A DNA stretch of 64,000 nucleotides, from the IMG/VR virus record IMGVR_UViG_3300044946_000048, positions 1 through 64,000 of that record; one strand, given 5' to 3'. Positions 23,501 through 63,885 of this stretch are shown here, in pieces; within the stretch, counting starts at the first letter, position 1; the number at the start of each line of letters is the position of its first letter. Position numbers and translations under genes: made by a program. The notes below the pieces were generated by a model. It ran no database searches. It was not told where the DNA came from and worked only from the letters and a program-made list of their open reading frames with translations. Origin of the DNA: a virus.

Positions 23501-23575
23501 TGGTCAGGAAAGAAGAAATCGAATCTTCGCCTCTCCCTTCCGACGGGAGTAGACTACCACTATCAGATTTCCTGA
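23501..23575 (-). tRNA. tRNA-Pro(CGG)
   Basis: Cloverleaf; CTCCC-GTCGGAA-GGGAG; CCA. Confidence 0.85.
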
Positions 23576-23582
23576 TGTAAAC

Positions 23583-23672
23583 TGGTCGGGGCGAGAGGAA
23601 TTGAACCTCCAAGGGAGTTTGTCCACCCGCTTCCAAAGCGGGACCGCTGCCAGATTACGGACCTACACCCCG
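23583..23672 (-). tRNA. tRNA-Pro(TGG) with long variable arm
   Basis: CCCGC-TTTGGAA-GCGGG; extra arm GGA-CAAAC-TCC; CCA. Confidence 0.8.
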
Positions 23673-23680
23673 ATTAAAAT

Positions 23681-23755
23681 TGGTTCCCGCGTGTGGACTC
23701 GAACCACAATGAACGCTTTCAGAGAGCGTCATCCTGCCAATTGAATGACATGGGA
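23681..23755 (-). tRNA. tRNA-Gln(CTG)
   Basis: ACGCT-CTCTGAA-AGCGT; CCA. Confidence 0.9.
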
Positions 23756-23762
23756 ATAAAAT

Positions 23763-23837
23763 TGGTTCCGGCGGATCGATTCGAACGATCATGACAAGTT
23801 TCAAAGACTTGCAGCCTGCCCGTTGGCTGACATCGGA
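23763..23837 (-). tRNA. tRNA-Gln(TTG)
   Basis: CAAGT-CTTTGAA-ACTTG; CCA. Confidence 0.9.
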
Positions 23838-23872
23838 ATAGAAACATATATGTCACTTTCAGCAACTAAGAT

Positions 23873-23947
23873 TGGAGCACAAGGTTGGAATCGAACCAAC
23901 GAGTATTCGTTTTGCAGACGAACGCCTTTCCACTTGGCTACTCATGC
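23873..23947 (-). tRNA. tRNA-Cys(GCA)
   Basis: TTCGT-CTGCAAA-ACGAA; U73; CCA. Confidence 0.9.
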
Positions 23948-23953
23948 TTAAAC

Positions 23954-24050
23954 TGGAGGATAATGTAGGATTCGAACCCACGGTGCCGGAATGTTTACCG
24001 GACACTTCTGTTTTCAGGACAGACGGCATAATCCGCTCGCCCAATTATCC
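23954..24050 (-). tRNA. tRNA-Ser(TGA)
   Basis: TCTGT-CCTGAAA-ACAGA; long variable arm; CCA. Confidence 0.85.
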
Positions 24051-24059
24051 TTAAAATTT

Positions 24060-24150
24060 TGGCGGAAGGTTTGTGATTTGAACACAAACAACCTTGCGGT
24101 TGACTTAGGTTTAGCAAACCTATACGTTAGCCTGGTTCCGTCAACCTTCC
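24060..24150 (-). tRNA. tRNA-Ser(GCT)
   Basis: TAGGT-TTGCTAA-ACCTA; long variable arm; GCCA. Confidence 0.88.
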
Positions 24151-24509
24151 GTATTCTTAGGTATCATAGCCGGATGAGGCTTTTGAAATTTCTTAACCCA
24201 TCCCGCTTTTGCCTCTTCACTCCACTCAGTAGGCTTTCTTCCAGCCTTACGATTGCAATTGAGATGTGAATAAGCAATATTCTGTAAATCCCAAAACAAG
24301 TTAGGAGAGTTGTCAAGCCACGGTATCTTGTGCTCTATACTAAACTCTTCAACCGTTTCTATTTTCTTAAGGCAGCGAAAACAACTATCTTTTCCGCACT
24401 CTCGTGCTAACGAAAATAAAAGAATTCGATGAAGTCTTGTCGCTGCCGTTGTATAAGGCATGCCTAACTGCGCAAGCTCCTTATCTTTATTCCTATAAAT
24501 TCTAGGCAT
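24141..24509 (-). CDS. tRNA-array HNH endonuclease (paralog of 26402..26890)
   Basis: CFRC...SIEHKIPWL...NIAYSHLNCN; ATG 24509; stop codon overlaps the 5' end of tRNA-Ser. Confidence 0.8.
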   Translation of the reverse strand: MPRIYRNKDKELAQLGMPYTTAATRLHRILLFSLARECGKDSCFRCLKKIETVEEFSIEHKIPWLDNSPNLFWDLQNIAYSHLNCNRKAGRKPTEWSEEAKAGWVKKFQKPHPAMIPKNTEG

Positions 24510-24573
24510 CTTGCCCTCCTCTAAAAGGCAAGTCGGGGATGTTAGAGGCATCCCCAACCTTAATGTACGTACA
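24510..24573 (-). promoter_or_regulatory. Twin-hairpin kissing-loop element (copy 6)
   Basis: TGTACGTACA, then GGGGATG-CCTCTAA-CATCCCC, then CTTGCCTT-TTAGAGG-AGGGCAAG-ATG. Confidence 0.78.
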
Positions 24574-24580
24574 AACTTAT

Positions 24581-24870
24581 TGGCAAACAATAGCCAGGAT
24601 TCTGTTCGGCTTGCGCCGCGACTATCATCCGTCTTTGCCCTTAACCCGGCTATCGTCGCGCTAGACGCGCTCCAGCCCTATTTAAGGTTGCTCCAAGAGT
24701 GGAGTGCCCAGACTTGAATGACAATGCTATGAGAACAGAGGCCCGAAGGCTTGTATGAGAAGCATTGTACCTGGCCTTACCCGTCCGCTTACGCGGCCCG
24801 CAACTTCCACGGCTCTTTGTCTAGTGGAGTCCTGAACTTACCTCGGTTTCCCGCGATAGTCTAGTTTACC
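24581..24870 (-). ncRNA. rnpB: RNase P RNA (catalytic subunit), phage-encoded
   Basis: P1 GGTAAAC/GTTTGCC; P2 GACTATC/GATAGTC; CR-I GAGGTAAGTTCAGGACTCC; GGAGCAA...AAATAGGG; CR-V AACAGAATCCTGGCTA forming P4 with a bulged U. Confidence 0.85.
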
Positions 24871-24871
24871 A

Positions 24872-25417
24872 TTAAGACTTATCTAAACCGCCCAATCCTG
24901 TTGAGCCGCCAGTAAGAAAATTCATCAATGTGTCTACTACTGCTTCCGAATCCGAAACATCCATCTGCTGGCATGTTTGAAATCTATCGTCTGCCCCAAC
25001 CGTGATGTCGCTCTCCGGTCCAATGAAACCATAATACACGTGGCCTAACTTCTCGTCAACAGTTAAAATTCCAATGATGCGATTACCTAGCCGAGCGCCA
25101 TTTATTACTAGGTTATGCTTTTCATAAACCGTCGCGGCGCTGAACGGGATTATGCCGTCTTTTGTTTTCGGCTCTTCCTTGTAACTGAACACTACCGGGT
25201 TATCTTCCTTCTTAACCGTGGTCGCATCCGTCAAGAAATCTCCGAATGTAGCAGTCGTTCGCTCTGCATTCAACACCATGTGAATGACAGTAAAATCCCG
25301 CGAACCACAACTTGCGATATTATACTCAACAACAGGCTTCGGCTCGGGTTGCTGTGGCATAACTGGTGTTGCCAGCGCCAACATAACTCCGAGGATTATG
25401 GCACGGATCGCTTTCAT
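24872..25417 (-). CDS. Secreted/periplasmic hypothetical protein
   Basis: Signal peptide MKAIRAIILGVMLALA. Confidence 0.6.
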   Translation of the reverse strand: MKAIRAIILGVMLALATPVMPQQPEPKPVVEYNIASCGSRDFTVIHMVLNAERTTATFGDFLTDATTVKKEDNPVVFSYKEEPKTKDGIIPFSAATVYEKHNLVINGARLGNRIIGILTVDEKLGHVYYGFIGPESDITVGADDRFQTCQQMDVSDSEAVVDTLMNFLTGGSTGLGGLDKS

Positions 25418-25512
25418 GTTGCATCCTAAGAGCACCTGATATACAAGGCATTAGTGCTCTGCCGCCTACAAACGCCTAGTAAACTAGGCACGTAGTCCCC
25501 TGCTCGGTAAAC

Positions 25513-25588
25513 TGGAAGGCACACTCGGAATCGAACCGAGAATCTACTCTTTAGGAAAGAGTCGCATTGTCCCTTGTGCTATGCGCCC
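25513..25588 (-). tRNA. tRNA-Arg(CCT)
   Basis: ACTCT-TTCCTAA-AGAGT; CCA. Confidence 0.88.
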
Positions 25589-25596
25589 ATAAAACT

Positions 25597-25671
25597 TGGA
25601 GGGCCGTCCCGGAATTGAACCGAGGTCTCTTCGTTAGAAGCGAAGCGCACTGTCCGTTGTACGAACAGCCC
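25597..25671 (-). tRNA. tRNA-Arg(TCT)
   Basis: CTTCG-CTTCTAA-CGAAG; CCA. Confidence 0.9.
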
Positions 25672-25677
25672 TTAAAC

Positions 25678-25751
25678 TGGCAGACCGTGGATGAATCGAA
25701 CACCCGCTTCTTGATTTGGAGGCAAGAAGACTACCACTATCTTAACAGCCT
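25678..25751 (-). tRNA. tRNA-Trp(CCA)
   Basis: Loop CTCCAAA; G73; CCA. Confidence 0.82.
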
Positions 25752-25758
25752 GCGAAAC

Positions 25759-26109
25759 TTATTTGATTCCTAATTTCTTCAGCAACAAGTAATTCTTGAT
25801 TGCGTAATATGCTTCCCCGGCTGCAACGACTCCGGAATAAATCATACCAGCTAACCAGACCTTGCTGCCTATAAGCAATCCGATGAATAGATACGCCGCG
25901 CCGCTCAACCAGGTTGCGAACGACTGTCCAACCTTACTAAACAGCCAACGCATTATCGGATTGCCTTCAACAAAACCCTTATTAGCCCCGAGGCCAATCA
26001 TCGTAGTAATACCGTCACCGATGATTGCTAGCAAGCCGAGAACTAAAACACCGAACAGCGCTAACCACGGACCCGCTGGCACAGACATACCGATTGGTGT
26101 AATCATCAT
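25759..26109 (-). CDS. Multi-TM membrane protein (DUF5658-like)
   Basis: DxxTTxxGL...EGNPIM motif with hydrophobic helices. Confidence 0.6.
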   Translation of the reverse strand: MMITPIGMSVPAGPWLALFGVLVLGLLAIIGDGITTMIGLGANKGFVEGNPIMRWLFSKVGQSFATWLSGAAYLFIGLLIGSKVWLAGMIYSGVVAAGEAYYAIKNYLLLKKLGIK

Positions 26110-26287
26110 GCCTCGCTCAGAAATTGTTCACATATTGCCCATGCGGACTTCATCATCCAAGCACGAGCATTGTTGATTCGAACTCGCTCTCCGGTTCTTG
26201 CATCGAACACGGTCAACGTAATCTTCGGTGGAAGATTGAGCCGATAACCAGAAAACGTTCGTTCAACTATTCTATCTCTCATAAAAT

Positions 26288-26362
26288 TGGAGCGGGACAT
26301 CGGATTCGAACCGACCCTCTCAGTTTGGAAGACTAATGTGCTACCACTAACACTAGTCCCGC
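26288..26362 (-). tRNA. tRNA-Gly(TCC)
   Basis: TTAGT-CTTCCAA-ACTGA; TCCA. Confidence 0.9.
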
Positions 26363-26371
26363 TTTGAAACT

Positions 26372-26445
26372 TGGAGCGACGTGCGGTAATCGAAACCGCG
26401 CCTAGTGCTTGGCAAGCACTCGTTCTACCACTATACCAACATCGC
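26372..26445 (-). tRNA. tRNA-Gly(GCC)
   Basis: AGTGC-TTGCCAA-GCACT; TCCA. Confidence 0.9.
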
Positions 26446-26890
26446 TCGGAACTTTTTCTCTCGTATAGTGCTGGCACTCTTTACATAGAGTATGATATCC
26501 AGACCAGTGAGAAGAATTTTTACTAAACTGCACCGTTGGGAGAAACTTCTTATGTCTATTGCACCAACTCATTCCTGACGGGCATTTAATTCTCAATTTC
26601 GAGAACTGCCCGTCTGGACCTGCTGGACGATCAGGCCTGTTACACCAAGTATGAGAAAATGCAATATTCTCCAAATCCCAAAATAATTTTGTGTCTACGT
26701 GCAGCCAAGGTTTCTTATGTTCTATTGTAAGGTCTTCGACCTTCACTATCTTAGACGTACACTTAAAACAAACATCTTCGTTTAACTTTTGAAGACACCT
26801 AAACAAAAGTATCTTTTTAAGTCTCCCCGAGGCTGTACCCCAAGGCATTCCTAGCTGTGATGCCTTCACAGCATTTGAAGTTCCTGACAT
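26402..26890 (-). CDS. tRNA-array HNH endonuclease with C-terminal zinc motif
   Basis: CFKC...TIEHKKPWL...NIAFSHTWCN...WCNRH...CKEC; reads into tRNA-Gly(GCC). Confidence 0.8.
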   Translation of the reverse strand: MSGTSNAVKASQLGMPWGTASGRLKKILLFRCLQKLNEDVCFKCTSKIVKVEDLTIEHKKPWLHVDTKLFWDLENIAFSHTWCNRPDRPAGPDGQFSKLRIKCPSGMSWCNRHKKFLPTVQFSKNSSHWSGYHTLCKECQHYTREKVPSDVGIVVERVLAKH

Positions 26891-26911
26891 GGATACCTTC
26901 CTGTCTTTAAC

Positions 26912-26986
26912 TTGCGCCAAATGGGAGTCGAACCCAATATCACTAGTTTATGAGGCTAGTATGATTATCCGTTTCACTCTGCCGCA
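26912..26986 (-). tRNA. tRNA-CAT (Met/fMet/Ile2 unresolved), no encoded CCA
   Basis: Loop CTCATAA; T-arm GGGTTCGACTCCC; one acceptor-stem mismatch. Confidence 0.65.
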
Positions 26987-26990
26987 AACT

Positions 26991-27066
26991 TGGTCGCTCT
27001 GGTTGGAATCGAACCAACTATGCACGGTTTATGAGACCGCTGCCTCATCCGGCTAGCTTCAAAGCG
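26991..27066 (-). tRNA. tRNA-Met(CAT)
   Basis: GCGGT-CTCATAA-ACCGT; CCA. Confidence 0.85.
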
Positions 27067-27072
27067 AAAACT

Positions 27073-27156
27073 TGGTACCCCGCGAGAGATTTGAACTCCC
27101 ATGACCGAAGTCGCCGCGTTCTAAGCGCGGTGTGTCTGCCGTTCCACCAGCAGGGC
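27073..27156 (-). tRNA. tRNA-Leu(TAG)
   Basis: CCGCG-CTTAGAA-CGCGG; variable arm; CCA. Confidence 0.9.
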
Positions 27157-27268
27157 ATAAAATCAATTCCAGAACAAACTAATTTGAAACTTTAAATCTT
27201 TTACAAACCAGGCGACAAGTATTGTGATGAATACTACGCCACCGATGACTTCAAATATGTTCATAAAC

Positions 27269-27342
27269 TGGTACTCGGTGGGAGACTCGAACTCCCTTTG
27301 CTGGATTGAAAGTCCAACGTATTACCCATATACGAACTGAGC
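27269..27342 (-). tRNA. tRNA-Glu(TTC)
   Basis: TTGGA-CTTTCAA-TCCAG; CCA. Confidence 0.88.
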
Positions 27343-27348
27343 AAAATC

Positions 27349-27430
27349 TTGAGCCCTTGCTTTCCTTACAGTCCGGCAAGTTAGCATTCAGCCGCAATCG
27401 TGTAAGCGACGTGCTGAAGCCTCGGCTCAA
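27349..27430 (-). ncRNA. Unknown three-way-junction RNA with complementary loops
   Basis: Outer stem TTGAGCC/GGCTCAA; two hairpins carrying CTTACA and TGTAAG. Confidence 0.5.
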
Positions 27431-27443
27431 ACTCAAATAAACT

Positions 27444-27517
27444 TGGTACCCGGAAGCGGAATCGAACCGCTGCTACATCCGTGAGAGGGATGCGTCCTAC
27501 CGTTAAACGATCTGGGC
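27444..27517 (-). tRNA. tRNA-Glu(CTC)
   Basis: CATCC-CTCTCAC-GGATG; CCA. Confidence 0.9.
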
Positions 27518-27554
27518 ACTGGCGGGCTCCGCCTTTCGACTCGGCCCGTGAAAC

Positions 27555-27632
27555 TGGCGGAATGGATGGGATTCGAACCCACGATAATCTGTCGTGACAG
27601 GACAGTGCCATTGGCCGCTAGGCGACCACTCC
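27555..27632 (-). tRNA. tRNA-Asp(GTC)
   Basis: CTGTC-CTGTCAC-GACAG; GCCA. Confidence 0.92.
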
Positions 27633-27641
27633 GTATAAAAT

Positions 27642-27716
27642 TGGAGCTAAGTGATGGAAATCGAACCATCGTTTCAGCTTTACCAAAGCTGCGTCTTACC
27701 ATTAGACGAACCAAGC
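27642..27716 (-). tRNA. tRNA-Thr(GGT)
   Basis: CAGCT-TTGGTAA-AGCTG; CCA. Confidence 0.88.
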
Positions 27717-27720
27717 AAAC

Positions 27721-27794
27721 TGGAGCCAAGTAAAGGAATTGAACCTTTCTTTGTGGTTTACGAAACCACCGTATTACCGCTATACGAACAAGGC
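27721..27794 (-). tRNA. tRNA-Thr(CGT)
   Basis: GTGGT-TTCGTAA-ACCAC; CCA. Confidence 0.88.
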
Positions 27795-27802
27795 ATAAAC
27801 TC

Positions 27803-27878
27803 TGGAGCACCGCATTCGATTCGAACGAATGTGACGAAGGTACAAGCTTCGTATACTAGACCGCTATATGAGCAGTGC
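27803..27878 (-). tRNA. tRNA-Thr(TGT)
   Basis: CGAAG-CTTGTAC-CTTCG; CCA. Confidence 0.88.
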
Positions 27879-27888
27879 TCGAAACTAA

Positions 27889-28024
27889 TTCCAGGCAACA
27901 ATCGCGTCGAGAGTCTCTTGAAGAGGGAGTCGAACCCTGCGCCCGATTTTACTCGGGCACCCAGACCATCCTGGCTATCCCCACGTGGCGGGGATAGAAG
28001 TATCTCAAAACTACGGCACTGGAA
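27889..28024 (-). ncRNA. Y RNA-like molecule with a four-hairpin tRNA-like insert
   Basis: TTCCAG-TGCCGTAG-stem-ATACTTC...TTGTTGC-CTGGAA; same scaffold as the RNAs upstream of the Ro60-like gene; contains a GGTTCGACTCC T-arm. Confidence 0.65.
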
Positions 28025-28031
28025 AATTGTA

Positions 28032-28127
28032 AGTCGCAGGGCAACAGGCGCATCAGGATAGTGTGGGGATTTCACCCACGTTCCTTTTAGGCAAAGAAGT
28101 AACCCGACACTAACGGCACCTACGACT
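28032..28127 (-). ncRNA. Y RNA-like molecule
   Basis: AGTCGTAGG-TGCCGTTAG-TGTCGGG-TTACTTC...CCTGATG-CGC-CTGTTGC-CCTGCGACT. Confidence 0.68.
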
Positions 28128-28132
28128 AAAAT

Positions 28133-28208
28133 TGGCTGTGTCCCTCGGATTCGAACCGAGACCCTAGGCATTAACAGTGCCCTATCATACCAGTTAGACC
28201 AGAACACA
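28133..28208 (-). tRNA. tRNA-Asn(GTT)
   Basis: GGGCA-CTGTTAA-TGCCT; GCCA. Confidence 0.88.
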
Positions 28209-28218
28209 ACGTAAACTT

Positions 28219-28293
28219 TGGAGGCCCCACTCGGATTCAAACCGAGGTTAACGGTTTCGAAGACCGTAGTCCTATTCGCTGAACGATAGAGCC
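28219..28293 (-). tRNA. tRNA-Arg(TCG)
   Basis: ACGGT-CTTCGAA-ACCGT; CCA. Confidence 0.85.
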
Positions 28294-28298
28294 AAACT

Positions 28299-28373
28299 TG
28301 GAGGACCGTCGGGGAGTCGAACCCCGCTCCTGGCGTTCGTAGCGCCATGCATTGTCCGATATACGAACAGTCC
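28299..28373 (-). tRNA. tRNA-Arg(ACG)
   Basis: TGGCG-CTACGAA-CGCCA; CCA. Confidence 0.9.
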
Positions 28374-28384
28374 GCAAAAATTAA

Positions 28385-28457
28385 TTGAACGCATTCTCCG
28401 TCGTAACACAGAGACACAGGCACGAAGGTTACGATGTTCGTGTCGCCTTACGTTCAA
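28385..28457 (-). ncRNA. Unknown three-way-junction RNA with kissing loops
   Basis: Outer stem TTGAACGTA/TGCGTTCAA; loops containing CGTAAC and GTTACG. Confidence 0.55.
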
Positions 28458-28460
28458 AAT

Positions 28461-28536
28461 TGGTAGCCCGTAAGAGAATCGAACTCTTCCGGTCTGGGTG
28501 TAAACCAGATGCATACGACCAGTTTGCTAACAGGCT
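28461..28536 (-). tRNA. tRNA-Val(TAC)
   Basis: TCTGG-TTTACAC-CCAGA; CCA. Confidence 0.9.
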
Positions 28537-28601
28537 ACAGAAAATAGCGGCGTACTGCGATACAGGGCTTTCAACCTGCATACGAATTTTGCCGCGAAAT
28601 T

Positions 28602-28675
28602 TGGTGGACCGTGGGGGAGTCGGACCCCCAACGCTTCGGTGCAAGCGAAGCAGTATCCCATTTACCTAACAGCCC
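28602..28675 (-). tRNA. tRNA-Ala(TGC)
   Basis: CTTCG-CTTGCAC-CGAAG; G3.U70; CCA. Confidence 0.9.
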
Positions 28676-28682
28676 ATAAAAT

Positions 28683-28757
28683 TGGTTCCCAGGGATGGAG
28701 TCGAACCATCGGCCTCTTCTTTATCAGAGAAGCATTCTGCCGCTGAACTACCCGGAA
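28683..28757 (-). tRNA. tRNA-Ile(GAT)
   Basis: CTTCT-CTGATAA-AGAAG; CCA. Confidence 0.88.
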
Positions 28758-28764
28758 ACGAAAC

Positions 28765-28854
28765 TGGTGGAAGCGAAAGGATTCGAACCTTTTAGTGCCG
28801 CAAGGGCATTCTGTTTTACAGACAGACACGACCCGCCGTCTTCGCCGCACTTCC
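28765..28854 (-). tRNA. tRNA-Tyr(GTA)
   Basis: TCTGT-CTGTAAA-ACAGA; variable arm; CCA. Confidence 0.9.
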
Positions 28855-28867
28855 ACTGAAACTTGTC

Positions 28868-28956
28868 TGGGAACCGACGGGGGATTCTCCCGTCCCATCC
28901 TACGGGCCGCTAGCAGGTATCCGTAAGCATTCAATCTATCTCGAACTGCGTTCCCA
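28868..28956 (-). ncRNA. Aberrant cloverleaf tRNA-like RNA
   Basis: TGGGAAC/GTTCCCA stem, D-like arm, CTTACGG/CCGTAGG arm with 15-nt loop, GACGGG-AGAATCC-CCCGTC arm; no free CCA. Confidence 0.45.
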
Positions 28957-28963
28957 CGAAACT

Positions 28964-29038
28964 TGGTACCCCGACCGAGACTCGAACTCGGACATTCTCC
29001 TTAAAAGGGAGTATTGCTGCCACTCGCATCCTCAGGGT
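28964..29038 (-). tRNA. tRNA-Lys(TTT)
   Basis: CTCC-CTTTTAA-GGAG; CCA. Confidence 0.82.
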
Positions 29039-29156
29039 GTAAAATCTGTTCTAAAGATATCTTCCCTCTATCGAATTCCAATGTCCTTTGTCTTACAATG
29101 GTGTGGGCCTTAACTGCGTTCCTACGTGCTGCTTCACTATGTTTAACCGATCTCAT

Positions 29157-29215
29157 ATACCCTCCCTAAAGGGTAGTCCGGGGTGTTAGGGCACCCCGAA
29201 CCCGATGTAGCTACA
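29157..29215 (-). promoter_or_regulatory. Twin-hairpin kissing-loop element (copy 7), upstream of a short remnant ORF (ATG 29156)
   Basis: TGTAGCTACA, then CGGGGTG-CCCTAA-CACCCCG, then TACCCT-TTAGGG-AGGGTA-T-ATG. Confidence 0.75.
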
Positions 29216-29220
29216 AACTT

Positions 29221-29296
29221 TGGTGCGCCTACTCGGACTTGAACCGAGACCTTACCGGGTAAGAACCGGAGATTCTGCCACTCGAAATCCAGGCAC
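29221..29296 (-). tRNA. tRNA-Lys(CTT)
   Basis: CCGG-TTCTTAC-CCGG; CCA. Confidence 0.82.
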
Positions 29297-29306
29297 ACTG
29301 AAAACT

Positions 29307-29392
29307 TGGTGCGGCTGGCAGGATTCGGACCTGCACGCTCGTTGGAGCACGGGGGTTTAAGTCCCGCTTGTCTTCCATTCCATCACAACCGC
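29307..29392 (-). tRNA. tRNA-Leu(TAA)
   Basis: Loop CTTAAAC; variable arm; CCA. Confidence 0.85.
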
Positions 29393-29396
29393 AAAT

Positions 29397-29470
29397 TGGT
29401 CGTCGGTGAGTGAATCGAACACTCGTCAAGCCCTTATAAGGAGGCCATTCTGCCATTGAACTAACCGACA
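29397..29470 (-). tRNA. tRNA-Ile(TAT)
   Basis: Loop CTTATAA with an imperfect anticodon stem; good D, T and acceptor arms; CCA. Confidence 0.7.
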
Positions 29471-29565
29471 AAAATCAATGGGGCCTAGGCCGAGCTTTAA
29501 AAGGCTGGACCATGGAGCAGAAAGGTTCTCACGCCAGTGTGCTCTTAGTGAGAAGACCCCAAACT

Positions 29566-29636
29566 TGGTGCGGCCTCATCGAAACCGAACATTCGAATCG
29601 TTAAACCGACAATACTATCTGGCGATTGTCAGCCGC
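29566..29636 (-). ncRNA. CCA-terminated non-cloverleaf RNA
   Basis: GCGGCT/GGCCGC-A-CCA acceptor-like stem, GACAAT/ATTGTC hairpin and ATTCGAAT T-loop-like segment; no anticodon arm. Confidence 0.45.
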
Positions 29637-29734
29637 AAATCTTTTAGTCATTTTAGTCGGGCGGCTGGTTCACCGTGTCGGTAGCTAACCTAATTTCCCG
29701 ATTCGTACGTACTTTCCAGCCCGCACTCTAAACT

Positions 29735-29818
29735 TGGTCCGCCGCAAAGGATTTGAACCTTTACACCCGAAGGCGCTCGCTCTTGAGGCGAGTGCGTCTG
29801 CCGTTCCGCCAGCAGCGG
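29735..29818 (-). tRNA. tRNA-Leu(CAA)
   Basis: CTCGC-CTCAAGA-GCGAG; variable arm; CCA. Confidence 0.9.
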
Positions 29819-29886
29819 ATAATATTTTATGGAGCTTGTCGATGCTCCTGAACGAGGGCAGTTTTTATTCGTGCCCAGAGGAAACT

Positions 29887-29961
29887 TGGTCCTGAACCAG
29901 AGAGTCGAACTCCGTACGCCACCCTCTTCAGGGGTGCGCTCTACCGATGAGCTAGATCAGG
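29887..29961 (-). tRNA. tRNA-Phe(GAA)
   Basis: CACCC-CTGAAGA-GGGTG; CCA. Confidence 0.9.
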
Positions 29962-30075
29962 ATAAACTTTTCAAACAAGAGCGTAGTGCCTTAACCCGTT
30001 TGCTACGCCTTGTTCGCGCTGCATATAAGTTACTGCTCTGACTACTCACTGCATTCGGAGGGTTCCTCCGAAACT

Positions 30076-30151
30076 TGGGGTTGACGCTCGGACTCGAACC
30101 GAGACAGATTCCTTCACAGGGAGCCGTGCTAACCATTACACTACATCGACC
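30076..30151 (-). tRNA. tRNA-His(GTG)
   Basis: Loop CTGTGAA; G-1/C73; CCA. Confidence 0.88.
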
Positions 30152-63747: not shown

Positions 63748-63885
63748 TTGACGAGTACCGTAGATTGGGGTTACTTCTGACTACGAATCAGATAGTGTAG
63801 GTTCGAATCCTGCGGCTCATCCTCATGATGAGTCTAGTGTAATGGTAGCACATCCCGTTACTTCAATCGCTTGTCGTCTCGTCAA
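63748..63885 (+). ncRNA. YrlA-type Y RNA with permuted tRNA-like domain
   Basis: Terminal stem TTGACGAG/CTCGTCAA; anticodon-like arm (CTACGAA), T-arm GTAGGTTCGAATCCTGC, closed acceptor-like stem, then D-arm AGTGTAATGGTAGCAC. Confidence 0.82.

What the first reader, a model, noticed from the sequence alone, without database searches (positions are those of the whole stretch)
24581..24870. Phage-encoded RNase P RNA with a non-canonical specificity domain inside the tRNA array
Seen: a ~290-nt RNA with P1, P2, P3, a covarying P4 (AGTTCAGGA/TCCTGGCT with bulged U) and the GGAGCAA and AACAGAA landmarks. I could not find the conserved S-domain CR-II (ACAGARA) and CR-III (GUGAAA) motifs; a different long hairpin (ACAATGCT...AGCATTGT) is there instead. 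Known: CR-II/III contact the tRNA elbow, and RNase P RNAs are rare in phages. Inference: a private 5'-processing ribozyme, possibly relaxed enough to cut the non-tRNA units of the array, using host RnpA.
Basis: partly seen in the sequence, partly recalled or inferred. Interest (0 to 1): 0.8.

Follow-up and report, generated by a model that had tools for sequence, protein, structure and literature searches.

The report
Phage RNase P RNA lacking elbow-docking module
An uncultured soil phage carries, inside its own cluster of 34 tRNA genes, a slimmed-down copy of RNase P RNA (the ribozyme that trims new tRNAs) that has lost the part all cellular versions use to grip the tRNA elbow and has a different small conserved element in its place.

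Summary
Confirmed. Window 24576-24872 (minus strand) is a full-length homologue of bacterial class A RNase P RNA. It scores 87 bits (E 5e-27), below Rfam's 100-bit cut-off, so routine annotation misses it. It lies in the 34-tRNA array of an uncultured 88.6-kb soil phage.

It belongs to a family found only in phage and metagenome DNA. Its lineage motif occurs in 19 viral and 54 metagenome stretches and in 0 of 185,579 prokaryote species genomes. Across 16 unique full-length members, 91% of cells in 71 proposed pairs are paired. 47 pairs change on both sides, including pairs in P4 and P6.

The long hairpin (P12) is hypervariable and is not the replacement. The conserved part is an 8-nt junction, CAUUCRAG. 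Its C158 covaries with G99 (48 of 48 Watson-Crick), an arrangement like a tRNA elbow.

The phage tRNAs keep normal elbows and encoded CCA (33 of 34). No RnpA gene was found in 5 phage records. Activity, expression and relaxed specificity remain untested. The scan has reported this phage RNase P family before on other DNA. I found no paper on it.

The parts
24576..24872 (-). RNase P RNA gene (297 nt), class-A-derived, reduced specificity domain
   Evidence: RF00010 full-length match, 87 bits, E 5.4e-27; same place at E 1.9e-28
24864..24871 (-). P1 5' strand (UGGUAAAC); pairs with 24581-24588
   Evidence: 8 uninterrupted pairs in the window RNA; every family member has a P1 run of 5-11 pairs
24581..24588 (-). 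P1 3' strand (GUUUGCCA)
24855..24861 (-). P2 5' strand; pairs with 24620-24626
   Evidence: 7 pairs, 100% of cells paired in 16 sequences, 4 pairs changed on both sides
24620..24626 (-). P2 3' strand
24844..24853 (-). Miniature P3 (CGG-GAAA-CCG); other members have P3 inserts of up to about 75 nt
   Evidence: read; not counted for covariation because the window row is mis-registered by one base in A2
24830..24838 (-). P4 5' strand (AGUUCAGGA) with bulged U at 24835; pairs with 24592-24599
   Evidence: 8 pairs, 100% paired, 5 changed on both sides (helix 3). The pair beside the bulge is U-G in 14 and G-C in 2 of 16
24592..24599 (-). P4 3' strand (UCCUGGCU), preceded by AACAGAA (24600-24606, CR-V)
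24819..24823 (-). P6 pseudoknot 5' strand (UAGAC); pairs with the P17 loop at 24662-24666 (GUCUA)
   Evidence: 5 pairs, 92.5% paired, 4 changed on both sides (helix 5)
24781..24817 (-). P7 5' strand, P8 hairpin (24798-24812), P9 hairpin with GUAA loop (24783-24797), P10 5' strand (24781-24782)
   Evidence: P7 91.4% paired with 5 of 5 pairs changed on both sides; P9 100% with 4 of 5. The P8 loop, P10 and J10/11 lie in my search pattern, so their invariance says nothing
24770..24775 (-). P11 5' strand (G99-G104 in window RNA numbering, base 1 = 24873); G99 is at 24775
   Evidence: P11: 6 pairs as first drawn, 94.8% paired, 4 changed on both sides (helix 10). G99 pairs better with C158
24721..24768 (-).
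   Evidence: 8-bp stem read; insert length 5-69 nt in 40 unique members, none in L008 and longer in L021; replaced in a relative (joint 24722/24768)
24713..24720 (-). J12/11 CAUUCAAG: conserved 8-nt junction holding a U-U-C-R-A pentad (24718-24714); C158 is at 24716
   Evidence: present in 15 of 16 and 40 of 42 parsed unique S-domains, where one miss is an anchoring error and one is L008. C158 covaries with G99: 40 of 40, 48 of 48 and 15 of 15
24701..24712 (-). P11 3' strand (24706-24712) and P10 3' strand (24701-24702)
24639..24699 (-). P7 and P5 3' strands, GAGCAA junction, P15-P16-P17 with invariant CGGGU (24648-24644) in the L15/16 loop
   Evidence: P15 100%, P16 95.3%, P17 89.1% of cells paired; C226-G227-G228-G229-T230 invariant in 16 sequences
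24626..24634 (-). CR-IV-like AGACGGAUG
   Evidence: aligned to the consensus uAGAugAAUG; A240 G241 A242 G244 A246 T247 G248 invariant
24607..24618 (-). Optional hairpin between P2 and P4 (CGGC-GCAA-GCCG), at the place I recall as P19
   Evidence: 4 pairs, all changed on both sides, 92.5% paired; missing in 6 of 16 (helix 14)
24872..25435 (-). Upstream 187-aa ORF with a signal-peptide-like N-terminus; its stop codon (24874-24872) abuts the RNA
   Evidence: no Pfam or PHROG family; no relative in viral contigs; adjacency kept in a relative's contig (record 3)
24141..24509 (-). Downstream HNH homing-endonuclease gene. The listed ORF runs to 24590, but the likely start is the ATG at 24509 behind GGAGG
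   Evidence: PF01844 E 3.6e-7, phrog_23251 E 8.6e-22; start read
25513..25588 (-). tRNA-Arg(CCU), the tRNA upstream of the ribozyme
   Evidence: the order Arg(CCU) - RNase P - Ser(GCU) recurs in L014, L017, L019, L023, L024
24060..24150 (-). tRNA-Ser(GCU), the tRNA downstream of the ribozyme

Best explanation
This is a real, selectively maintained, phage-encoded RNase P RNA derived from the bacterial class A type.

What it keeps: the complete catalytic domain (P1-P5, P15-P17, the P4 and P6 pseudoknots, CR-I/IV/V and the L15 GGU that pairs with tRNA 3'-CCA) and the P7-P11 part of the specificity domain.

What it lacks: the double T-loop module (CR-II and CR-III), P13, P14 and P18.

Most likely mechanism (inferred):
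- It is transcribed with the phage's tRNA array.
- It borrows the host's RnpA protein.
- It cuts the 5' leaders of the phage's 30-odd closely packed pre-tRNAs.
- It recognises them mainly through the acceptor stem, the leader and encoded-CCA/L15 pairing.

In place of the double T-loop, a conserved 8-nt junction (CAUUCRAG) probably folds as a single T-loop. It would be locked by a long-range pair between its third base (C158) and G99, an arrangement like the D-loop/T-loop pairing at a tRNA elbow. This may give a stacking surface for the substrate's elbow.

Shown: homology, conservation, covariation, genomic context, and absence of CR-II/III. Inferred: catalysis, the protein partner, the T-loop fold and its role.
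For: Homology: full-length RF00010 match at 87 bits, E 5.4e-27. Relatives score 84.6-131.8 bits.

A family seen only in phage and metagenome DNA: the lineage motif is in 19 viral stretches and 54 metagenome stretches, and in 0 stretches of 185,579 species genomes.

Fold under selection, 16 unique sequences and 71 pairs:
- 91.0% of cells paired, against 31.7-40.1% when partners are slid.
- 47 pairs changed on both sides.
- 0 of 500 shuffles reach any measure.
- P4 is 100% paired with 5 of 8 pairs covarying; P6 has 4 of 5 covarying.

Long retention: carriers share only 35-37% terminase identity with the window's phage. 4 of 4 related genomes have exactly one copy.

Context: all 15 other unique members sit in same-strand tRNA arrays; in L017 the spacers to the flanking tRNAs are 7 and 4 nt.

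Substrate match: 33 of 34 tRNA calls end in encoded CCA, and the L15 CGGGU is invariant.

CR-II/III absent.

J12/11 element: present in 15 of 16. 99:158 is Watson-Crick in 40 of 40 unique S-domains (33 G-C, 7 C-G), in 48 of 48 rows with at least 3 switches forced by supported branches, and in 15 of 15 on A2 with 1 of 500 shuffles as high.

No phage RnpA: 0 of 1 and 0 of 4 records.

Published support: the C-domain alone cleaves, with reduced efficiency, and P18 is dispensable for it (PMC5839562, abstract). RNase P clamps tRNA between L15-CCA pairing and the T-loop module (PMC4919913, passages).
Against: - No activity or expression data exist for this RNA.
- The window copy scores below Rfam's curated cut-off (87 against 100 bits).
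- The module that all cellular bacterial RNase P RNAs use to dock the tRNA elbow is missing, although the phage's tRNAs have normal elbows: 29 of 33 with UUCRA and 32 of 33 with GG. Efficient tRNA binding is therefore not assured.
- In the window the gene is not flanked tightly by tRNAs. It sits between a 187-aa ORF and an HNH gene, so how its ends are made is unknown.
- The window copy has a 3-bp P3 and an extra U before the P4 5' strand.
- The T-loop reading rests on one covarying pair and a sequence pattern. G98 lies inside my search pattern, so its constancy is uninformative.
- If whole S-domain modules recombine between phages, the 3 or more 'switches' need not be independent substitutions. 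The C-G class also shares G159 and A167, which fits a common origin.
- The single-sequence fold gives only z = -2.5 and does not reproduce the comparative structure.
Confidence: 0.75

Rival explanations
1. It is a retargeted ribozyme. It is catalytically active, but the remodelled S-domain serves a substrate set other than, or wider than, canonical tRNAs. Candidates are the non-tRNA structured units of the array, mRNA leaders of the homing-endonuclease genes, or the ribozyme's own ends.
For: Loss of the elbow-docking module removes one of the two ends of the RNase P 'ruler' (PMC4919913, passages). The array holds 16 gaps of 30 nt or more between tRNAs. First-stage notes describe structured units in some of them (I did not check these).
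Against: Only 2 of those 16 gaps carry the CCA-plus-spacer mark that follows 32 of 33 tRNAs. The invariant L15 GGU and the encoded CCA point to tRNAs as the main substrates. The RNA is kept in arrays with very different inserts.
Confidence: 0.12
2. It is a non-catalytic decoy or regulator. The RNA keeps the RnpA-binding surface and soaks up the host protein subunit, either to shut down host tRNA maturation or to redirect the protein, without cutting anything itself.
For: No phage RnpA was found, so any protein partner must be the host's. The substrate-docking module is lost.
Against: The parts needed only for catalysis and substrate positioning are conserved and covary: the P4 geometry with its bulged U, P6, the GAGCAA junction, CR-IV/V and the L15 GGU. 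A decoy would not need them.
Confidence: 0.08
3. It is a decaying fragment of a host rnpB gene picked up by the phage (a pseudogene), or an assembly chimera.
For: The score is below the Rfam cut-off and several helices are missing.
Against: The same reduced architecture recurs in 16 unique viral sequences with 47 of 71 pairs compensated. It always lies inside tRNA arrays, in phages whose terminases are only 35-37% identical. The lineage motif is in no species-representative prokaryote genome. A relative's contig from another study spans the junction between ORF187 and the RNA.
Confidence: 0.03

Closest known systems
Bacterial RNase P RNA class A (Rfam RF00010)
   Same: Full-length alignment to the model. 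It has P1-P11, P15-P17, the P4 and P6 pseudoknots, the CR-I, CR-IV and CR-V strings, and the L15 GGU for CCA pairing.
   Different: It has no CR-II or CR-III (double T-loop), no P13/P14 and no P18. It is 297 nt against a 367-position consensus. The pair beside the bulged U of P4 is U-G in 14 of 16 members instead of the consensus G-C. It is encoded by a phage inside its tRNA array, and the window copy scores below the family's curated cut-off.
Mitochondrial RNase P RNAs lacking the J11/12-J12/11 module (Lehmann et al. 2013, PMC3664808, passages read)
   Same: [quoted passage not shown]
   Different: In mitochondria the loss goes with tRNAs that lack a D-loop/T-loop platform. Here the phage's tRNAs have ordinary elbows: 29 of 33 with UUCRA and 32 of 33 with GG.
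Thermoproteaceae (Pyrobaculum) 'type T' RNase P RNA and engineered C-domain-only E. coli RNA (PMC3579882, search listing only; PMC5839562, abstract)
   Same: These are natural or engineered RNase P RNAs that work with little or no specificity domain, and P18 is dispensable.
   Different: This RNA keeps P7-P11 and a conserved junction element. It is bacterial-type, not archaeal, and it is a natural viral gene.
Theta (HDV-like) ribozymes next to phage tRNAs (PMC10879173, two passages read)
   Same: A phage brings its own ribozyme for maturing its own tRNAs.
   Different: Theta ribozymes are small self-cleaving motifs proposed for 3'-trailer removal. This RNA is a trans-acting RNase P homologue for the 5' end.
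The tRNA elbow itself (T-loop U54-U55-C56-R57-A58 with D-loop G18 G19; base numbers recalled)
   Same: U156-U157-C158-R159-A160 together with G98 G99. The third pentad base makes a covarying Watson-Crick pair with the second G, in the same parallel register as G19-C56.
   Different: It is formed within one RNA, across the P11 helix. The fold is inferred, not seen.

Membership tests
Bacterial RNase P RNA class A (RF00010) | Covariance-model score at or above the curated gathering score (100 bits) | tested here: not met
   87.0 bits, E 5.4e-27, full length 1-367. Relatives score 84.6, 91.6, 93.1, 98.7, 102 and 131.8 bits. The match is highly significant but mostly under the cut-off.
Bacterial RNase P RNA class A (RF00010) | P4 helix with bulged U, formed by the CR-I and CR-V strands | tested here: met
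   8 pairs, 100% of cells paired in 16 sequences, 5 pairs changed on both sides. Both strands align position for position with the consensus strings printed, apart from one extra U in the window just before the P4 5' strand.
Bacterial RNase P RNA class A (RF00010) | P6 pseudoknot with P15-P16-P17 (class A rather than class B; the class assignment is recalled) | tested here: met
   P6 has 5 pairs, 92.5% paired, 4 changed on both sides. P15, P16 and P17 are 100%, 95.3% and 89.1% paired.
Bacterial RNase P RNA class A (RF00010) | L15 GGU that pairs with tRNA 3'-CCA | tested here: met
   CGGGU is invariant in 16 sequences. 33 of 34 tRNA calls in the window end in an encoded CCA.
Bacterial RNase P RNA class A (RF00010) | J11/12-J12/13 double T-loop (CR-II AG..A and CR-III UG..A) that docks the tRNA elbow | tested here: not met
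   The consensus columns ACAGAAA and GUGAAA are deleted in the model alignments. 0 of 16 members have ACAGARA or GUGAAA in the distal S-domain. J11/12 is a single base. The core residues are as quoted in PMC3664808 (passages).
Bacterial RNase P RNA class A (RF00010) | P13, P14 and P18 peripheral helices | tested here: not met
   There is no sequence for P13/P14 between P12 and the P11 3' strand in any of 16 members. The P18 position is empty in 14 of 16; L010 and L016 have inserts there.
Bacterial RNase P RNA class A (RF00010) | Cleaves pre-tRNA 5' leaders, with the RnpA protein in vivo | not testable with these tools
   No PF00825 match in 5 phage records. The host is unknown.
T-loop motif (five bases, first and fifth paired, purine fourth, long-range pairs at positions 2-3; definition partly recalled, partly from PMC4919913 passages) | U-N-N-R-A pentad conserved in a single-stranded stretch | tested here: met
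   AUU[CG]RA[AG] is present in 40 of 42 parsed unique S-domains. One miss is an anchoring error and one is L008.
T-loop motif | The third base makes a long-range Watson-Crick pair | tested here: met
   99:158 is G-C or C-G in 40 of 40, 48 of 48 and 15 of 15. The nested alternative 99:168 pairs in only 27 of 40.
T-loop motif | Reverse-Hoogsteen U1-A5 pair and a base intercalated between positions 4 and 5 | not testable with these tools
   This needs a 3D structure or chemical probing.

The most novel reading that the evidence does not exclude
Phages of this soil lineage carry a distinct class of RNase P ribozyme that has discarded the double T-loop clamp used by cellular RNase P, the ribosomal L1 stalk and T-boxes. 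In its place it has built, within its own S-domain, a copy of a tRNA elbow: a single T-loop locked to a GG by a G-C pair. This elbow-like knob, or else the catalytic domain with CCA pairing alone, docks substrates. That would let a 297-nt RNA with a borrowed host protein mature a dense 30-plus tRNA operon, and possibly release itself from it.
Probability: 0.3. Interest if true: 0.85.

Novelty: new variant of a known kind. Interest (0 to 1): 0.72.

Why it matters
RNase P RNA is treated as a strictly cellular, universal ribozyme. The double T-loop that grips the tRNA elbow is one of its most conserved parts and is shared with the ribosome and with T-box riboswitches.

A natural family in viral and soil-metagenome DNA keeps the catalytic core under clear selection and drops that module, while its substrates still have elbows. 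This is a ready-made experiment on how much the elbow contact matters.

It also gives a compact ribozyme (263-349 nt) for structural work. It adds a tRNA-maturation enzyme to the list of translation-related functions that phages carry.

Most members score below Rfam's cut-off, so they are invisible to standard annotation.

Tried and rejected
Searches and tests that led nowhere or were dropped:
- Rfam at gathering thresholds on the whole window finds only tRNAs.
- blastn of the RNA and megablast of 14 kb around it against 50,697 phage records: no match at E 1e-5. At E 10 there are three 29-34-nt chance hits.
- The 187-aa neighbour has no relative in the viral contigs. The terminase alone brought only one 4.4-kb contig.
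- A degenerate CR-I pattern gave 5 loci with no RNA-family hit, so these are chance matches.
- A composite catalytic-domain pattern gave only L008.
- Tunturiibacter phage Tunturi_3, the nearest cultured phage by terminase (22.8% identity), has no RF00010 match.
- Expression: no RNA holder is listed. The four runs laid are all contigs, two labelled DNA and two of unknown library type, and they cover only parts of the stretch.
- The single-sequence MFE fold (z -2.53) does not reproduce the comparative structure, which has two pseudoknots.
- Promoter-like and terminator-like sites around the gene are at chance level: 1 found against 2.2 expected, and 3 against 1.6.
- P1 scored only 53.9% paired. 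This is an alignment register artefact between two P1 subclasses; a per-sequence check shows P1 in all 16.
- I first drew G99 as paired with C168 (nested, part of P11). I dropped that in favour of 99:158, because 99:168 pairs in only 27 of 40.
- I looked for a second T-loop (AG..A) elsewhere in the RNA by eye and found none conserved.
- I did not build a covariance model of the whole RNA. By the tool's stated timings a ~300-position model would probably exceed the calibration limit.
- Literature: 8 full-text searches found no paper describing a phage-encoded RNase P RNA (and for background). The 2024 RNase P review mentions none in the 12 of 26 passages shown. The Bcheck paper contains none of the words phage, virus, viral or plasmid. 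Subscription journals and supplements were not searchable, so a prior report cannot be excluded.

Full report
**What is there.** The window is the first 64 kb of an 88.6-kb IMG/VR virus record, estimated 83% complete. It has a large terminase (phrog_38, E 3e-37), an SU10-type portal and HNH homing endonucleases. On the minus strand between 23501 and 30150, ARAGORN tRNA genes.

A permissive Rfam search of 24400-25000 finds a full-length match (model 1-367) to bacterial RNase P class A at 24576-24872, minus strand, at 87.0 bits and E 5.4e-27 (same place). The score is under Rfam's curated 100 bits, so the gathering-threshold scan of the window shows nothing there.

**It belongs to a family seen only in phage and metagenome DNA.** L008 was found with a catalytic-domain pattern and scores 131.8 bits. 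It shares with the window a lineage-specific P8 loop and P10 junction. A 35-position pattern over that stretch matches:
- 19 stretches of viral contigs;
- 54 stretches of metagenome contigs;
- 0 stretches in one genome each of 185,579 prokaryote species.

No cultured phage in the 50,697-record collection has it at blastn sensitivity. Four related virus records, three of them at least 99% complete and 100-105 kb long, each have exactly one full-length RF00010 match, at 84.6-102 bits; only one is over the cut-off. Their terminases are only 35-37% identical to the window's. L008's complete 70.8-kb genome has no terminase match at all. All 15 other unique viral members lie in same-strand tRNA arrays. 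In the window's sub-group the order is tRNA-Arg(CCU), RNase P, tRNA-Ser(GCU), with spacers of 7 and 4 nt in L017. In the window a 187-aa ORF and an HNH gene have been inserted on either side.

**The fold is under selection.** I assigned helices from the window RNA, checked that every pair is standard, and projected them on an alignment of 16 unique full-length members of 263-349 nt (A2). Results:
- 91.0% of 1102 cells are paired, against 31.7-40.1% when the 3' partners are slid by 1-3 columns.
- 47 of 71 pairs change on both sides.
- 0 of 500 shuffles reach any of the five measures.
- P4 (8 pairs) is 100% paired with 5 compensated pairs.
- P6 (5 pairs) has 4 compensated; P2 has 4 of 7; P7 has 5 of 5; P9 has 4 of 5; P11 has 4 of 6; P15 has 4 of 4.

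Two caveats apply. The columns inside my search pattern (P8 loop, part of P9, P10, J10/11) are invariant by construction. The low P1 figure (53.9%) is a register artefact, since each sequence has its own P1.

P4 aligns position for position with the consensus strands printed. The pair next to the bulged U is U-G in 14 and G-C in 2 of 16, and the next pair is G-C, C-G or A-U.

**The specificity domain.** In the model alignments the consensus columns that carry CR-II (ACAGAAA) and CR-III (GUGAAA), and the P12-P14 block, are skipped. None of the 16 members has either motif in the distal S-domain.

[quoted passage not shown] Its AG..A and UG..A residues are highly conserved, and mitochondrial RNase P RNAs lack it together with elbow-less tRNAs (PMC3664808 and PMC4919913, passages read). 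Here the substrates are not elbow-less: 29 of 33 phage tRNAs have UUCRA at positions 54-58 and 32 of 33 have GG in the D-loop.

**What replaces the module.** Inserts range from 5 to 69 nt in 40 unique S-domains; there is none in L008 and a longer one in L021. A relative in another soil sample has 11 other letters in place of 45 nt of it. It is therefore not the functional substitute.

The constant part is the junction after it, CAUUCRAG (24720-24713). It is present in 15 of 16 viral members and in 40 of 42 parsed unique S-domains. It is kept even where P12 is reduced to a 5-nt insert (L066, L080).

The junction contains a U-U-C/G-R-A pentad. Its third base covaries perfectly with the base just before P11 (G99, window 24775):
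- 33 G-C and 7 C-G, with no exception, in 40 unique sequences. The nested pair I first drew (99:168) holds in only 27 of 40.
- On a tree built from the 3' half of the catalytic domain, which excludes both sites, 48 of 48 rows are Watson-Crick. The state changes 5 times, and at least 3 changes are forced by well-supported branches.
- On A2 the pair is 15 of 15, with 1 of 500 shuffles as high.

A five-base loop of this pattern, whose third base pairs with the second G of a GG in parallel register, is the arrangement of the tRNA elbow. (The pairs G18 with base 55 and G19 with C56 are recalled, not tested here.) I therefore read J12/11 plus G98-G99 as a single T-loop locked in cis.

Caveats: G98 lies in my search pattern. 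The C-G class also shares G159 and A167. If whole S-domain modules recombine between phages, the switches are not independent events.

**How it most likely works.** Two things are shown: a complete catalytic domain with an invariant L15 CGGGU, and tRNA genes that nearly all encode CCA (33 of 34) followed by a stereotyped (A)GUUU or AUUUU spacer (32 of 33).

The rest is inferred. The RNA is made with the array and pairs with the encoded CCA. It uses the host's RnpA, since no PF00825 match exists in 5 phage records. It then cuts the 5' leaders.

Published work shows that a C-domain without its S-domain still cleaves, less efficiently, and that P18 is not needed for that (PMC5839562, abstract). 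The T-loop/GG knob may restore a stacking surface for the elbow, or may only brace P11 and P12.

Only 2 of the 16 gaps of 30 nt or more carry the CCA-plus-spacer mark.

**Comparison and novelty.** It works like, and descends from, class A RNase P RNA. It fails two membership tests, the curated score and the double T-loop, so I file it as a new variant rather than an ordinary member.

Eight full-text searches and four papers queried for the topic gave no description of a phage-encoded RNase P RNA. Subscription papers and supplements were out of reach.

Within this scan the same family has been reported many times on other genomes; I used those notes as leads only.
- the explicit test that the double T-loop is absent while the substrates keep their elbows;
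- the demotion of the long hairpin to a variable insert;
- the conserved J12/11 element with its covarying 99:158 pair.

**Verdict.** I put 0.75 on a functional phage RNase P ribozyme and about 0.3 on the elbow-mimic docking idea. No expression or activity data exist.

Noticed in passing
L012 5794-6091 and L015 6046-6343: ARAGORN calls a 'tmRNA' (tag AADASGSNGAF*) that spans two tRNA-Lys genes and part of the RNase P RNA. This is most likely a false call triggered by the tRNA-like ends.
   Followed up: partly
window 24754-24761 and 24728-24735 (minus strand): The internal loop of the P12 hairpin has the same octamer, UUCUCAUA, on both strands. L017 and L020 likewise have a direct repeat of about 13 nt on either side of the central hairpin of P12. 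The meaning is unknown.
   Followed up: no
L016, L019, L023, L045, L047, L052, L064, L067, L070, L082 (S-domain): The members with the C99-G158 state also all have G159 and A167, where the others mostly have R159 and G167 (for those it parsed; L067 read from its printed sequence, L016 and L019). This may be a second coupled contact or shared ancestry of the module.
   Followed up: partly
window 23501-30150 (minus strand): 33 of 34 tRNA calls end in an encoded CCA, and 32 of 33 are followed by (A)GUUU or AUUUU. The CCA-plus-spacer signature occurs 50 times on the minus strand of the window and 11 times on the plus strand. It looks like a processing signal for the 3' side.
   Followed up: partly
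window 24872-25435 (minus strand): A 187-aa ORF with a signal-peptide or lipoprotein-like N-terminus and no Pfam or PHROG family sits between tRNA-Arg(CCU) and the ribozyme. Its stop codon abuts the RNA. A relative's contig from another study keeps this adjacency.
   Followed up: partly
L008 (record G005, 70.8 kb, complete): This phage has no detectable match to the window's terminase, yet its RNase P RNA shares the lineage motif. It has the shortest S-domain (no P12, no CAUUCRAG) and the highest Rfam score, 131.8 bits. Transfer of the gene between phage lineages is possible.
   Followed up: no
L010 and L016, at the P18 position of alignment A2 (columns about 354-384): Two members have inserts where P18 would be. 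L010 has two hairpins, one with a GUAA loop; L016 has one hairpin with a UUCG loop. The other 14 have nothing there.
   Followed up: no
L014 1398-1472: ARAGORN calls a tRNA with a four-base anticodon (taag) in a relative's array. It could be a frameshift-suppressor-like tRNA or a miscall.
   Followed up: no
window 63760-63813 (plus strand): A partial tRNA match (model positions 10-63, 30.9 bits) lies far from the array, at the place where other first-stage notes describe a Y-RNA-like unit.
   Followed up: no
window 24141-24590 and 26402-26920 (minus strand): Two paralogous HNH endonuclease ORFs (phrog_23251, E 8.6e-22 and 2.3e-18) are inserted in the tRNA array. The first probably starts at the ATG at 24509, behind a GGAGG.
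   Followed up: partly
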